In this document: positions 745 to 11,299 of the stretch, in pieces
Layout of the letters: the number at the start of each line of letters is the position of its first letter
How positions within the stretch are numbered: the stretch's first letter is position 1
DNA from: the human T2T-CHM13v2.0 reference genome, Homo sapiens
DNA length: 64,000 nucleotides
Direction: 5' to 3' (one strand)
NCBI RefSeq assembly: GCF_009914755.1
Contig: NC_060930.1
The notes under the pieces: model-generated
What the model was told of the DNA's origin: nothing
Databases searched by the model: none
Seen by the model: the letters and a program-made list of their open reading frames with translations, nothing else
Translations under genes and position numbers: made by a program

Positions 745-1056
<312 letters not shown>

Positions 1057-3954: not shown

Positions 3955-4677
3955 CCACATTATATGTTATCAGGTAAATGCAAATTTAAACAGATAACAC
4001 TACACACCGGTTAGAATGGCCAAACTCTAGAACACTGACCACTCTAAATGCTGGCAAGGATGTGGAACGACAGGAACTCTCATTCATTGGTGCTGGGAAT
4101 GCAAAATGATGTAGCTACTTTGCAAGACAGTTTAGCAGTTTCCTACAAAACTAAATATACTCTTACCATACAATCCAGCAATTATGCTCTCTGGTATTTA
4201 CCCAAAAGAATTGAAACTTACATCCACAAACACACAAAAAAATCCTACACACAGTGATTTATAACAGCTTCACTTGTAATTACCAAAACTGAAAGTAAAC
4301 AAGATACCTTCAGTACTTCAGTAGCTGCATGGAAAAATAAAATGTAGTTCATCCAGTCAATGGAATATTACTCAGTGGTAAAAACAAACGAGCTATCAAG
4401 CCACGAAAAAAACATGAAAGAAACTTTATTATTACTAAGTGAAAGAAGCCAATCTGAAAGCCTGTATATTGCATGATTCCAATTATATGACATTCTGGAA
4501 AAGGTAAAACTAAGTAGATAGTAAAAATACTTTTTTTGGTCAGGGGTTATAGGTAAGAAAGGAATTAATAGGTAGAACACAGGATTTCTAGGGCAGTGAA
4601 ACTATTTTATATCATCTTATAATGGTGAGCACATCTCATGATACATTTCTCCAAACCCATAGAATATACAATACCAA

Positions 4678-4987
4678 TTTGAAGCAATTGTGAATGGGAG
4701 TTCACTCATAATTTCTCCGTTCTTGGTATATAAGAATGCATGTGATTTTTGCACATTGATTTTGCATCCTGAGACTTTGCTGAAGTTACTTATCAGTTTA
4801 AGGAGATTTTGGGCTAAGACGATGGGGTCTGAAATGGTAAGTTTCTTAAAGGAGGACTTGTGCTGTTTATATCCATATTTGACATACCACTCTGCAAAGT
4901 ATGCTTGGCGCACATTAGGCACTCAATTGAACTGAACTTTCCCAAGTACTATGACAGCTCCAGTCATGAGGCTAGTGGCCTCAGTTC
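4678..4987. other. 310-bp templated insertion (150 bp antisense L1PA + 20-bp TSD copy + ~140 bp L2-like/unique flank) bounded by a 10-bp duplication
   Basis: acaataccaa at 4668-4677 and 4988-4997; 4678-4872 matches the reverse complement of ~7677-7871. Confidence 0.9.
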
Positions 4988-5243
4988 ACAATACCAAGAG
5001 TGAACTCTAATGTAAACTATGGTGGATTTGGGGTGCTTATGTTATCTCAATGTAGGTTCATCAACGGTGACGAATGTGCCACTCTGATGGGGGATGTTAA
5101 TAATGGGAGAAGCTATGCATGTGTGGGGCAAACAGTATATGGGAAATATCTACACCTTTCTCTCAATTTTGCTGTGAATCTAAAACTGTTCTAAAAAAAT
5201 TAAGTCTAAAAATGTTCAGTGAAGTATGTATGTTAAAAAGTTA

Positions 5244-5616
<373 letters not shown>

Positions 5617-5619
5617 CTA

Positions 5620-5790
5620 GCCCTTTATCAGTTCTCATTCCCATTCAGTCTTTGTACAATATTTGATGCTATCAATCACTCTCTTTCCAATTATGTTTCC
5701 CTCTTAGCCTCCAAGATTCCTCCTTCTGCTGTGCAGCAAGTGATGGTTTTGTTTGTTGTGGTCACCTGTGTGCTGATTTCATCTCTCCTT
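5620..5790 (+). mobile_element. L2 fragment
   Basis: atatttgatgctatcaatcactctctttcc...ccctcttagcctcc resembles L2 body. Confidence 0.4.
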
Positions 5791-5809
5791 CTGAAATGGT
5801 AAATTTCTT

Positions 5810-7667
<1,858 letters not shown>

Positions 7668-7721
7668 CACGAAACAATATAAACAGCACAAGTCCTCCTT
7701 TAAGAAACTTACCATTTCATA

Positions 7722-9630
<1,909 letters not shown>

Positions 9631-11299
9631 ACAGTCAGCTCAATTACTTTATAATATAGACCAAAGGAACATCCAGATTCTTCAATTACACTGGAATGTC
9701 ATGTGTCCTCCTTTTTTTTTAAATAAAGAAACCATAAATTGCATGTTGGAAGTCTCCTTTTTCTTTCTTTTTTTGGGGTAACATGTTTTTTCATTGTAAT
9801 GTTTATTGAAACAGGACTTGGGTTTTCCCTGTAGCTTTTAAAGTAAAACTTGCCATTCCCCACCCAATTTTCCCACATACCTGCAAAAGTTTACAAAAGA
9901 TACTATCCAAAAGTTCCAAAGAAGGTTAGGAAGAGTTTCATATGGATAATTGAGACTGAACAACTAAACCCACTGAGGGTTAATGCAGACAGACTTTTGC
10001 AGCTTTAATAGTTAAAACAACTGGACCCTCACCTCTTTACATCTGTCGCCACTTTATGTAGGAGAAACTGAGAGAGCCTAACCAACCTCAGCGTTGGGAA
10101 GAACTGTCCTGGAATGCATGCCCGTAGTTCGCTAAGCTGCACCACAGGCAGCTTTTGACTTTTTGCCCTATTAGTTAGTTCTGCCCAGATTTCCCAAAGA
10201 AGGGCAAGACTGCATGCTTCCCTACTGCCCTGGTGCTCCCAGAATCACAAAGAAACTTGCGGGGCAGTTGCTGTGAGGTCTGGGATTCCCACCAGCACTG
10301 AAGCGGTTAACTTTTAGGAAGACCTAGAGAAAGAAAAACAGACTAAGAACTGCCTTGTGCTGGGAGGAGGGTTAGAAATTGAGGCCGTTGCTGTTGTTTT
10401 CATTGTGTGCGCTCTAATCAGGGAGAGTAAGAACAATAATGCATGTAATGCTGATTTTGGAACGTGTCCATGCAGCTTTTCCCAGGCTAGACAGCCTTGG
10501 GAACCACTGATAGAGTGGCACACCAGGGGCACAGCCTCAATCACCAAGCACAGGGCAGGGCAGCCTTTTCTGTGGATAAAATATGTGAGAGATGACAAGA
10601 ATCTTCCCAGCATGGGAAGTGGCAGTAACAAAAATATATATATACAATGGAGTGAAACTGAAGGCTTTGCATCTCGCAGCCCAGCCACGGGGACATGATA
10701 TTTGAAAGATAGGATATTTCTCCTTTTACCCACCCCCATTTTCCTTTTTTGTTTGTTTGTTTCCCTTCTTGTATTCAACTTGCCCTCCCTTTCTTCCCCA
10801 CTCCCATCCCCCAGATTCCCTCTGCCACACTTTGAAGCCCAGATGAAAGCCGTGTGTTGTGGCTGCTGGCACCAAGCAAGAGCAAAAGTGTGCTTTAGTT
10901 TAAGATGCTGTACTTTTCGCTCAAGGAAAAGGGGGAAAAATCAGCTTGAAACAATACATTGCATTTTGCTGGACAGCAGGCTTGTATGTATCTAGGATTC
11001 AAACGTGGTCCTAATTTTTTCAGAGCTTTTGTCTCCAAGGACAAGGCAATAGCTAAAATGTGGCATCCTTTTTCAAAGCAAATACATATAACTGCAAGGG
11101 TTTTGCAGTGGTATTGTTTAATAAAATAAACAAGAGACAAGAATCAGGCACATGAGCTTTTTGGTGTTGACACAACAGCAGATCGTAGCTATTTCAAGTG
11201 TTGTTGAAACAGCTCCCTTACTTTTAAATAGCACAATCTAGCTATGCTGTACTAAATGATTTTTGAAGGAATGACTTCTGTACATTTACTTAGTTATTT

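What the first reader, a model, noticed from the sequence alone, without database searches (positions are those of the whole stretch)
4668..4997. TSD-flanked 310-bp fossil copy of the original L1 junction that preserves otherwise deleted DNA
Seen: the old L1MC 3' UTR (...agaatatacaataccaa|gagtgaactctaatgtaaac...) is split by an insert with a perfect 10-bp duplication, acaataccaa. The insert is 150 bp of the palindrome's L1 (with the same ~11-bp deletion), the 20-bp TSD (4828-4847), 25 bp also present in the spacer, and ~115 bp of L2-like flank (gcttggcgcacattaggcactcaatt...) that I see nowhere else in the window. There is no poly(A) and the site is not TTTT/AA. The target's gagtgaactc (4998-5007) is the exact reverse complement of gagttcactc (4698-4707) inside the insert. 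Inference: a locally templated insertion made during break repair, recording the locus as it was before the palindrome formed. It may come from the same complex event that deleted the flank.
Basis: partly seen in the sequence, partly recalled or inferred. Interest (0 to 1): 0.78.

Follow-up and report, generated by a model that had tools for sequence, protein, structure and literature searches.

The report
Local DNA patch preserving a lost junction
A 310-base piece of neighbouring DNA was copied into an old repeat 2.9 kb away, and it is now the only record in this human genome of sequence later lost when the neighbouring L1 element became an inverted duplication.

Summary
Bases 4678-4987 (310 bp) sit inside an old L1M 3' end between two copies of ACAATACCAA. 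Among 27 other genomic copies of that L1M matching both flanks, all show the 10-mer's position once, and 20 place the flanks exactly 10 nt overlapping.

The insert comprises:
- 150 bp of the neighbouring L1PA, sharing a 12-bp deletion with both arms
- that L1's 20-bp target-site duplication
- 25 bp also found inverted in the palindrome spacer
- 115 bp found nowhere else in T2T-CHM13

Flank, duplication and insert flank map colinearly onto a profile of L2 3' ends. So the 115 bp is most likely the true ancestral neighbour of the L1 integration site.

There is no poly(A), no L1 endonuclease-type site and no junction microhomology. My best reading (0.6) is a DNA-templated repair or template-switch patch, made before or during the fold-back-type rearrangement that produced the L1 inverted duplication and removed the flank. 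An RNA/cDNA patch is the main rival.

Timing and one-event versus two-event origin need ape and monkey genomes, which these tools do not hold. It is a clear example of a known kind of event, of moderate interest.

The parts
4540..4667 (+). Left part of the old L1M 3' end that received the insert (range tested)
   Evidence: Matches 27 of 29 other genomic copies of the family, contiguous with the right part
4668..4677 (+). Left copy of the 10-bp duplication ACAATACCAA
   Evidence: the position occurs once in the other family copies shown
4678..4827 (-). 150 bp of the neighbouring L1PA (its 5'-truncated end; L1 sense is on the - strand), with the shared 12-bp deletion
   Evidence: 10 differences from the right arm, 7 of 105 from the left arm; 8 of the differences are private to the insert
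4828..4847 (+). Third copy of the L1's 20-bp target-site duplication, in the apparent ancestral state
   Evidence: agrees with one or the other of the two remaining copies at both variable sites
4848..4872 (+). 25 bp of the original right flank of the L1, also kept inverted at 7677-7701
   Evidence: identical, within the 195-nt ungapped match
4873..4987 (+). 115 bp of the original right flank that exists nowhere else in the assembly; L2 3' end up to about 4928, then unassigned sequence
   Evidence: unique; colinear with an L2 3'-end profile
4988..4997 (+). Right copy of the 10-bp duplication
4998..5215 (+). Right part of the old L1M 3' end. 4998-5007 is the reverse complement of 4698-4707
5730..5809 (+). 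Original left flank (L2 3' end) ending in the left copy of the L1's 20-bp duplication (5790-5809)
   Evidence: profile fit z 2.75, ends at profile position 125, as does the insert's copy
5810..7667 (-). Left arm: L1PA in antisense orientation, from the poly(T) to a point 45 bp short of the element's 5' end
7668..7676 (.). 9-nt filler cacgaaaca at the inversion junction, origin not found
   Evidence: no source in the window at up to 3 mismatches other than chance-level hits
7677..7721 (-). Inverted 25-bp flank and inverted 20-bp duplication, single copy within the palindrome
7722..9632 (+). Right arm: the same L1PA in sense orientation, complete to its 5'-truncation point and ending in a degenerate A-rich tail
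9633..9720 (+). New right-hand neighbour (flank C). No copy of the 20-bp duplication and no detectable L2 similarity
   Evidence: profile fit z -0.6 and -2.0

Best explanation
The 310 bp at 4678-4987 is a copy-and-paste patch. A break or stalled synthesis inside the old L1M 3' end was mended using the DNA 2.9 kb downstream as template. That template was the intact 5' junction of the neighbouring L1PA: 150 bp of L1, its 20-bp target-site duplication and 140 bp of flank.

Synthesis then resumed on the original template 10 nt behind the point of departure, or else a 10-nt staggered break was filled in. Either route left the ACAATACCAA duplication.

The copy was made while the L1 still had its original right flank, so before or during the rearrangement that did three things. 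It joined an inverted copy of the L1 plus 45 bp of junction to the left arm through a 9-nt filler. It ended that copy at the A-tail. It joined it to a new neighbour with loss of the flank.

Shown:
- local origin of the insert
- duplication of the target
- uniqueness of the 115 bp
- their ancestral nature

Inferred: a DNA template, the repair pathway, and the order of events.
For: - **Target duplication.** The target was continuous and its 10-mer single: 27 of 29 family copies match both flanks, all 27 printed junctions show the 10-mer's position once, and 20 of 27 show exactly 10 nt of overlap.
- **Local origin.** The insert carries the neighbouring L1's own 20-bp duplication and 25 bp of flank, 184 of 195 identical to 7677-7871 with no gaps, plus the 12-bp deletion shared with both arms.
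- **Not copied from today's palindrome.** After the 25 bp the palindrome continues with a filler and the left arm. The insert instead continues with 115 bp unique in the assembly.
- **Ancestral colinearity.** Pieces were fitted independently to a 233-position profile of L2 3' ends built from 22 other genomic copies. They end in order at profile positions 109 (5730-5789), 125 (both copies of the 20-mer), 151 (4848-4872) and 189 (4873-4915), just before the conserved tail motif. For 4828-4915 the fit gives z 5.0, with 0 of 200 shuffles reaching it. For 5730-5809 it gives z 2.75, with 2 of 200 shuffles reaching it. Three controls give z below 0.
- **Not a retrotransposition signature.** There is no A-tail, and the site reads AT|ACAATA. 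By contrast the L1's own integration site reads ...TTTCTT|AAAGG on the nicked strand and has a 16-nt tail.
- **Adjacent rearrangement.** The neighbouring locus shows an inverted duplication with a short single-copy spacer and an inserted filler. This is the layout described for fold-back inverted duplications, where 5 of 18 junctions without repeat homology carried insertions (PMC3907307, passages read).
Against: - **No microhomology.** Neither junction shows any as the sequences read today. On the left...ACCAA joins TTTGAAG where the donor's upstream bases are ...ATTCTC. On the right...CAGTTC joins ACAATA where the acceptor's upstream bases are ...GAATAT. Microhomology-mediated template switching usually leaves some. 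Blunt joins fit capture of a free fragment by end joining, and such a fragment could equally be cDNA.
- **Transcription.** The whole window lies within a lncRNA gene transcribed from the - strand (hub annotation). Local nascent RNA containing this junction would therefore have existed.
- **Excess private changes.** The insert has 8 private derived substitutions in 150 bp of L1, while 29 sister L1 copies differ from their majority state by 1.4-4.0% (median 2.5%) over their lifetime. This is only marginally above expectation and fits any error-prone synthesis, reverse transcription included.
- **Weak local profile hits.** Local profile searches (nhmmer) gave no hit to the flank pieces once the anchoring 12-mer was removed. 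An independently anchored profile gave only weak hits, E 0.018 and 0.083. The colinearity therefore rests on my own fitting alignment with shuffle controls.
- **No outgroup.** No outgroup genome was examined.
Confidence: 0.6

Rival explanations
1. RNA-templated patch. A fragment of a local transcript running across the L1's 5' junction was reverse-transcribed and used to fill a staggered break. The enzyme could be L1 ORF2p priming without a poly(A), or another reverse transcriptase supplying a cDNA that end joining captured. The transcript could be intronic RNA of the - strand lncRNA gene, or a + strand read-through.
For: - The 10-bp duplication lies within the range left by L1-type integration. 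Templated sequence insertions derived from RNA are described in human germline and cell lines, in two classes (PMC5110952, abstract and passages read).
- Both junctions are blunt.
- The window is inside a transcribed lncRNA gene (hub annotation).
- If the + strand was the RNA sense, the nick site would read TTGT/AT, a 4-of-6 match to TTTT/AA (my reading).
- Of the 8 private changes in the insert, 4 are C-to-T and 2 are A-to-G on the L1 sense strand, with none of the complementary types. This is a strand asymmetry of the kind editing or error-prone copying could give.
Against: - The insert fits neither described class. Class 1 has a duplication, a poly(A) and a TTTT/A site; here there is no poly(A) and no such site. 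Class 2 has no duplication; here there is one.
- The donor lies 2.9 kb away on the same strand of the same locus, whereas described cases come from distant regions.
- The fragment ends inside the L1 body and inside unique flank, not at a polyadenylation signal.
- Eight substitutions are too few to establish an editing signature.
Confidence: 0.22
2. Two ordinary steps rather than an insertion. First, a tandem duplication of the segment running from the 10-mer to the end of the 115-bp flank. Second, a deletion in the first copy that removed everything from just after the 10-mer to L1 position 7563.
For: The right junction...ggcctcagttc|ACAATACCAA gagtgaactc, is exactly what a tandem-duplication junction would look like.
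Against: The later deletion would have to start at precisely the base after the 10-mer, the very point where the duplicated unit begins. That coincidence has no mechanistic reason behind it. A templated patch explains both junctions at once.
Confidence: 0.06
3. One complex event. The insert, the inverted duplication and the deletion were all written in a single run of template switches on an intact sister or homologue. The path was:
1. L1M left part
2. jump 2.9 kb ahead and copy 310 bp
3. return 10 nt behind the point of departure and copy 3 kb, up to 7667
4. 9-nt filler, then switch strands and copy back from the 25-bp flank through the whole L1 to its A-tail
5. jump to the new right-hand neighbour

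This is a special case of the best explanation and is scored separately for timing.
For: - All five stretches are contiguous pieces of the inferred ancestral locus.
- All breakpoints lie within about 5 kb.
- The flank is lost only because the path never copies it in place.
- Arm-to-arm divergence rises from 31 mismatches in the first 1700 columns to 9 in columns 1701-1800. That matches or exceeds the insert-to-arm divergence of 11 in 195, as expected if the inner arms were homogenised by conversion and all copies are the same age.
Against: - Over 1399 polarised sites the arms have only 10 and 8 private changes against 25 shared. Without conversion, that makes the palindrome much younger than the insert.
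- The excess at the outer end is one-sided. Eight sites are derived in the left arm with all 4 outgroups agreeing with the right arm, and none are clearly derived in the right arm within 9453-9596. Equal age with escape from conversion does not predict that asymmetry.
- No breakpoint is shared between the insert's donor segment (7563 to the end of the 115 bp) and the inversion junctions (7667 and the end of the 25 bp).
Confidence: 0.35

Closest known systems
Templated insertions at breakpoints of replication-based complex rearrangements (template switching of the FoSTeS/MMBIR type)
   Same: A few hundred bases are copied from a nearby stretch of the same locus. The donor is retained. Another rearrangement lies adjacent (inverted duplication plus deletion). 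A small duplication marks the point of return. General description is from the abstract of PMC8421209 (search listing) and from my own knowledge of the field.
   Different: No microhomology is visible at either junction. The event is old and fixed rather than somatic or pathogenic. The insert lies 2.9 kb from the other breakpoints rather than at one of them.
Templated sequence insertion polymorphisms, classes 1 and 2 (PMC5110952; abstract and passages read)
   Same: A stretch of non-repeat genomic sequence is inserted elsewhere with the donor left intact. It shares a target duplication of at least 5 bp with class 1. It shares the absence of a poly(A) and of a polyadenylation signal with class 2.
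   Different: Class 1 also requires a poly(A) tract and a TTTT/A site, both absent here. Class 2 has no duplication and shows microdeletion, microhomology or untemplated bases, none of which are seen here. Both classes were defined for donors in distant regions, whereas this donor is 2.9 kb away.
Fold-back inverted duplications with a single-copy spacer (PMC3907307; abstract and passages read). This comparison is for the neighbouring palindrome, not the insert.
   Same: Two inverted copies are separated by a short stretch present once (7668-7766). There is an inserted filler at the junction, as in 5 of that study's 18 junctions without repeat homology. Sequence beyond is deleted.
   Different: The scale is very different: 1.9-kb arms and a 99-nt spacer, against megabase duplications with 0.8-70 kb spacers. 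The event is interstitial and the chromosome continues normally on both sides. The outer end of the inverted copy stops exactly at the L1's A-tail.
L1 twin priming and L1 5' transduction
   Same: Both give inverted L1 pieces or L1 copies that carry upstream flank, and both are common causes of small inversions. About 85% of inversions under 2 kb form by twin priming, according to the abstract of bioRxiv 10.1101/2021.12.20.472354 (search listing).
   Different: Twin priming inverts different parts of one RNA. It cannot contain the finished target-site duplication between the arms. A 5'-transduced daughter would need to land within 100 bp of its parent, and no flanking duplication is seen around 7668-9632.

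Membership tests
L1 ORF2p-mediated retro-insertion (class 1 templated insertion / retrocopy) | Target-site duplication of 5 bp or more | tested here: met
   A 10-bp duplication, confirmed as a duplication of a single ancestral 10-mer by 27 other family copies
L1 ORF2p-mediated retro-insertion (class 1 templated insertion / retrocopy) | Untemplated poly(A) tract at one end, downstream of a polyadenylation signal | tested here: not met
   The ends read TTTGAAGC... and ...GGCCTCAGTTC, with no A- or T-run at either end
L1 ORF2p-mediated retro-insertion (class 1 templated insertion / retrocopy) | Integration at a TTTT/A-type nick site | tested here: not met
   The possible nick sites read TTGT/AT (+ sense) or CCAA/GA (- sense). 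The neighbouring L1's own site reads TTCTT/AAA.
Class 2 templated insertion (double-strand-break patch joined by end joining) | No target duplication; microdeletion, microhomology or untemplated bases at junctions | tested here: not met
   A 10-bp duplication is present. No bases are lost from the target, there is no filler, and there is no microhomology at the left junction. The donor sequence beyond the right junction no longer exists, so that side is open.
Class 2 templated insertion (double-strand-break patch joined by end joining) | Template is RNA (donor transcribed, donor site intact) | not testable with these tools
   The donor lies in a lncRNA gene (hub annotation). No expression data are available, and sequence alone cannot tell RNA from DNA here.
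Replicative template-switch insertion (FoSTeS/MMBIR type) | Template lies close by in the same locus and is retained | tested here: met
   The donor starts 2885 bp downstream. 195 of the 310 bp are still present there.
Replicative template-switch insertion (FoSTeS/MMBIR type) | Microhomology of a few bases at the switch points | tested here: not met
   0 nt at the left junction and 0 nt at the return junction, as read today. Later substitutions could hide 1-2 nt.
Replicative template-switch insertion (FoSTeS/MMBIR type) | Part of a cluster of breakpoints formed together | tested here: inconclusive
   An inverted duplication and a deletion lie within 5 kb. However, the divergence data do not settle whether they are the same age.
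Mobile element in its own right (DNA transposon or similar) | Own termini (inverted repeats) and other copies in the genome | tested here: not met
   The insert is a composite of L1, a target-site duplication and L2 or unique flank. 4848-4987 has no other copy in the assembly, and no terminal inverted repeat is reported.

The most novel reading that the evidence does not exclude
The L1 integration itself set off the whole cluster. An unrepaired intermediate of this L1's insertion collapsed a replication fork in the germline. One error-prone run of template switches then wrote the 310-bp patch, the inverted second L1 copy and the deletion. Under this reading the locus would be a fixed, roughly hominoid-age germline counterpart of the L1-triggered fold-back rearrangements and deletions so far catalogued in tumours. 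The two stretches with excess private substitutions (4678-4827, and 5839-5980 at the outer end of the left arm) would be the mutational scar of that synthesis.
Probability: 0.15. Interest if true: 0.6.

Novelty: new member of a known kind. Interest (0 to 1): 0.4.

Why it matters
The insert is an internal witness. It lets the ancestral L1 junction and at least 115 bp of since-deleted sequence be read from the human genome alone. It also fixes the relative order of two rearrangements: the copy came no later than the loss of the flank.

Such fossil patches could be searched for systematically, to reconstruct pre-rearrangement states and to measure how often germline repair copies nearby DNA.

The combination of features here does not fit either published class of templated insertion. 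It has a clean 10-bp duplication, blunt joins, no poly(A) and a donor only 2.9 kb away. That makes it a useful test case for whether staggered breaks patched from local templates form a class of their own.

It has no evident effect on a gene, since it lies in an intron of a lncRNA.

Tried and rejected
- **Pairwise blastn with L2 copies.** Comparing the flank pieces with 30 genomic loci carrying the L2-tail 12-mer gave only short hits around the motif. All-against-all blastn of those loci did not cluster L2 copies; it found only Alu-type clusters.
- **MAFFT-based profile.** It aligned 4849-4928 in one piece (E 8e-8), and an iterated profile aligned 4837-4928 (E 1e-7). Both profiles were built from copies chosen for a 12-mer taken from the insert. 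With that 12-mer removed, no local hit remained, so I do not rely on those E-values.
- **Independently anchored profile.** Built from 20 loci, it gave only weak colinear hits (E 0.018 and 0.083). A stricter combined profile reported only the conserved tail.
- **What the colinearity claim rests on.** It rests on the fitting alignment with shuffles.
- **More L2 and L1 copies.** The outer 170 bp of the arms could therefore be polarised with only 4 outgroup copies.
- **Right arm as a 5'-transduced daughter L1.** Rejected. There is no flanking duplication, and it would require landing within 100 bp of the parent.
- **Twin priming.** Rejected, because the finished target-site duplication lies between the arms.
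- **The 10-nt inverted match as a junction microhomology.** Rejected. Priming from it would give an inverted insert joined at that 10-mer, which is not what is seen.
- **Source of the 9-nt filler.** None was found in the window.
Full report
**What is there**

The window is human chr6 (T2T-CHM13), inside the lncRNA gene HEY2-AS1 according to the hub annotation. Reading 4200-5700 shows an old L1M-type 3' end in + orientation. It is interrupted at 4677/4678 and resumes at 4988. The ten bases ACAATACCAA stand on both sides of the interruption, at 4668-4677 and 4988-4997.

**Is the 10-mer a true duplication?**

I fetched 29 other copies of this L1M 3' end from the same assembly (2946 candidates, 40 scored, 30 loci kept including the window's own). 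I then aligned the left flank (4540-4677) and the right flank (4988-5215) to each.
- 27 of the 29 match both flanks.
- In 20 of those 27 the two flanks project onto the other copy with exactly 10 nt of overlap.
- In the other 7 the projection is off (26, 6, -71, 12, 12, 15, 13 nt), because the left alignment stopped early or the copy has indels.
- All 27 printed junctions show the 10-mer's position once, in most followed directly by gagtgaa....

The target was therefore continuous, nothing was lost from it, and ten bases were duplicated.

**What the insert is made of**

A blastn of 4668-4997 against the window (word size 7) and the repeat finder agree.
- 4678-4872 is the reverse complement of 7677-7871: 184 of 195 bases, no gaps.
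- 4678-4782 also matches 7563-7667 in direct orientation, 98 of 105.
- 4873-4987 matches nothing in the window beyond chance-level words.

The surrounding sequence gives the neighbouring structure:

| Coordinates | Content |
|---|---|
| 5790-5809 | tctgaaatggtaaatttctt (left copy of the L1's target-site duplication) |
| 5810-7667 | poly(T) followed by an L1PA in antisense orientation (left arm) |
| 7668-7676 | 9 nt of filler |
| 7677-7701 | 25 nt |
| 7702-7721 | reverse complement of the 20-mer |
| 7722-9632 | the same L1PA in sense orientation, ending in a degenerate A-rich tail (right arm) |
| 9633 onward | unrelated sequence |

So the L1 inserted once, in antisense orientation, with a 20-bp target-site duplication. 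The nicked strand reads ...TTTCTT|AAAGG, an ordinary endonuclease-type site, and the left arm keeps a 16-nt tail.

The insert at 4678-4987 is that element's 5' junction in its original orientation:
- the last 150 bp of L1
- the 20-mer
- 140 bp of what lay to the right of it

The insert's 20-mer agrees with one or the other of the two remaining copies at both variable positions. It therefore keeps the apparent ancestral state.

Among 29 other L1PA copies, 18 have no gap at that site, 9 lack 4 bp, 1 lacks 8 bp and 1 lacks the same 12 bp. The site is slippage-prone, so the deletion supports common origin but does not prove it. The 20-mer and the 25 bp do prove it.

**Is the 115 bp really the lost flank?**

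4848-4987 matches only itself in the 3.1-Gb assembly. That search skips very common words and is weak for old repeats.

The 12-mer at 4916-4927 occurs 1786 times in the genome, against 41 for the reversed control. It is the conserved tail of the L2/MIR 3' end; that family name is my recollection and no repeat library was available.

I collected 30 loci with that motif and 20 with an independent L2 motif that the window lacks. From these I built an iterated profile of 233 positions from 22 copies. I then fitted pieces of the window to it one at a time, each forced to align over its full length, with 200 shuffles each.

| Piece | Profile end position | z |
|---|---|---|
| 5730-5789 | 109 | 1.25 |
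| 20-mer, left copy | 125 | 1.07 |
| 20-mer, insert copy | 125 | 2.27 |
| 4848-4872 | 151 | 0.25 |
| 4873-4915 | 189 (just before the tail motif) | 1.76 |
| 4828-4915 as a whole | 189 | 5.0 (0 of 200 shuffles reach it) |
| 5730-5809 as a whole | 125 | 2.75 (2 of 200 shuffles reach it) |
| Flank C, forward | 116 | -0.6 |
| Flank C, reverse complement | 218 | -2.0 |
| Unrelated control stretch | 167 | -1.2 |

The pieces fall in order and nearly abut. This is what is expected if left flank, 20-mer, 25 bp and the unique 115 bp were once one L2 3' end.

The caveats are real.
- Single pieces are individually weak.
- Local nhmmer searches found nothing once the selected 12-mer was removed.
- The independently anchored profile gave only E 0.018 and 0.083.

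Taken with the exact continuity of the first 45 bp, I regard the ancestral nature of the 115 bp as well supported but not proven.

**What the insert is not**

- It has no A- or T-run at either end.
- The possible nick sites read TTGT/AT or CCAA/GA.
- It is a composite of three unrelated sequences, so it is not an element of its own.
- It cannot have been copied from the present palindrome. There the 25 bp are followed by the filler and the left arm, not by the 115 bp.

**Junctions**

As read today there is no microhomology at either junction. In a fixed-position test it recurs in 27 of 20000 dinucleotide shuffles. If any offset within 30 nt of either junction is allowed, matches of 10 nt or more occur in 103 of 3000 shuffles. 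It is not used at a junction. Priming from it would give an inverted insert, so I leave it unexplained.

**Ages**

I polarised differences with the 29 other L1PA copies. These were chosen as the best matches to the right arm, which biases them slightly towards its states.
- 8 of the 10 differences between insert and right arm in the L1 part are private to the insert. At those sites at least 28 of 29 other copies agree with the arms.
- One difference is private to the left arm, and one or two are private to the right arm.
- Two substitutions are shared by all local copies against the others.

Over 1399 sites where both arms and a clear majority exist:
- 25 are derived in both arms
- 10 are derived in the left arm only
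- 8 are derived in the right arm only
- 33 further sites without a clear majority were set aside

The 29 sister copies differ from their own majority state by 1.4-4.0%, median 2.5%.

The insert's 8 private changes in 150 bp, or 8 in the 195 comparable bp, are thus at or above a whole L1 lifetime. That places the copy early after the L1's arrival, or means its synthesis was inaccurate.

The arms differ by 31 mismatches in the first 1700 aligned columns but by 9 in columns 1701-1800. With only 4 outgroup copies available for that end, 8 sites there are derived in the left arm with all four outgroups agreeing with the right arm. None within 9453-9596 is clearly derived in the right arm.

This one-sided cluster and the insert's excess bracket the segment 4988-5809. 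Each is only marginally beyond expectation, by my own Poisson estimates of about 0.03-0.04, which were not computed by a tool. I record them as unexplained.

The data allow two readings. Either the palindrome is younger than the insert, or it is equally old with its inner arms homogenised by conversion.

**Mechanism**

The simplest account of both junctions is a templated patch. Synthesis left the L1M at 4677, copied 310 nt of the intact L1 junction 2.9 kb ahead, and returned 10 nt behind its point of departure. Equivalently, a break with 10-nt stagger was filled in and a locally copied fragment was joined in.

The neighbouring inverted duplication has the layout described for fold-back inverted duplications at much larger scale: a single-copy spacer and a filler at the junction (PMC3907307, abstract and passages). 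It is equally described by two template switches, one from 7667 to the end of the 25-bp flank on the opposite strand, and one from the A-tail to flank C.

All five stretches of the present locus are contiguous pieces of the inferred ancestral one, so a single run of four switches on an intact sister is possible. I give that 0.35.

The main rival for the insert is an RNA-derived patch. Published templated sequence insertions fall into two classes. Class 1 has a duplication, a poly(A) and a TTTT/A site. Class 2 has none of these and shows end-joining marks (PMC5110952, abstract and passages). This insert fits neither class, and its donor is local rather than distant.

**Verdict**

The reading that the insert is a local templated copy preserving the pre-rearrangement junction is supported. 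The pathway and the timing remain inferred.

I searched the paper library three times: for templated sequence insertions with target duplications, for templated insertions with MMBIR and inverted duplication, and for L1 with fold-back inversions. The listings showed no description of this locus. I did not search for the locus by name.

It is a neat, instructive member of a known kind of event rather than a new kind.

Noticed in passing
window 5839-5980 (outer end of the left L1 arm), compared with 9453-9596: This is a one-sided cluster. Eight substitutions are derived in the left arm, with all 4 available outgroup L1 3' ends agreeing with the right arm, and there is also a 5-nt complex difference at 9470-9474. 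The inner 1399 polarised sites have only 10 and 8 private changes per arm.
   Followed up: partly
window 7833/7834 and the matching sites in the left arm and in the insert (about 4765): The 12-bp deletion lies in a short internally repetitive stretch of L1 ORF2. Eleven of 29 other L1PA copies carry 4-, 8- or 12-bp gaps at the same place, so it is a recurrent slippage site.
   Followed up: yes
window 4939-4971: The far end of the unique flank gives a weak second match to the start of the L2 3'-end profile (E 0.33 in a tiny search space). It may be a second fragment of the same family, or it may be chance.
   Followed up: no
window 7668-7676: A 9-nt filler, cacgaaaca, sits at the junction between the left arm and the inverted flank. 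No source was found in the window at up to 3 mismatches.
   Followed up: partly
window 752-990 and 5281-5519: Two Alu-like elements lie in inverted orientation, 84% complementary over 239 nt and 4.3 kb apart. They bracket the old L1M and the insert.
   Followed up: no
window 9601-9632 versus 5810-5825: The two arms end in different tails. The right arm has a degenerate ATAAAAAATAAATAAATAAAAAT, and the left arm has a pure 16-nt run. Either the tail evolved quickly after copying, or part of the right tail belongs to the new neighbour and served as the landing site.
   Followed up: no
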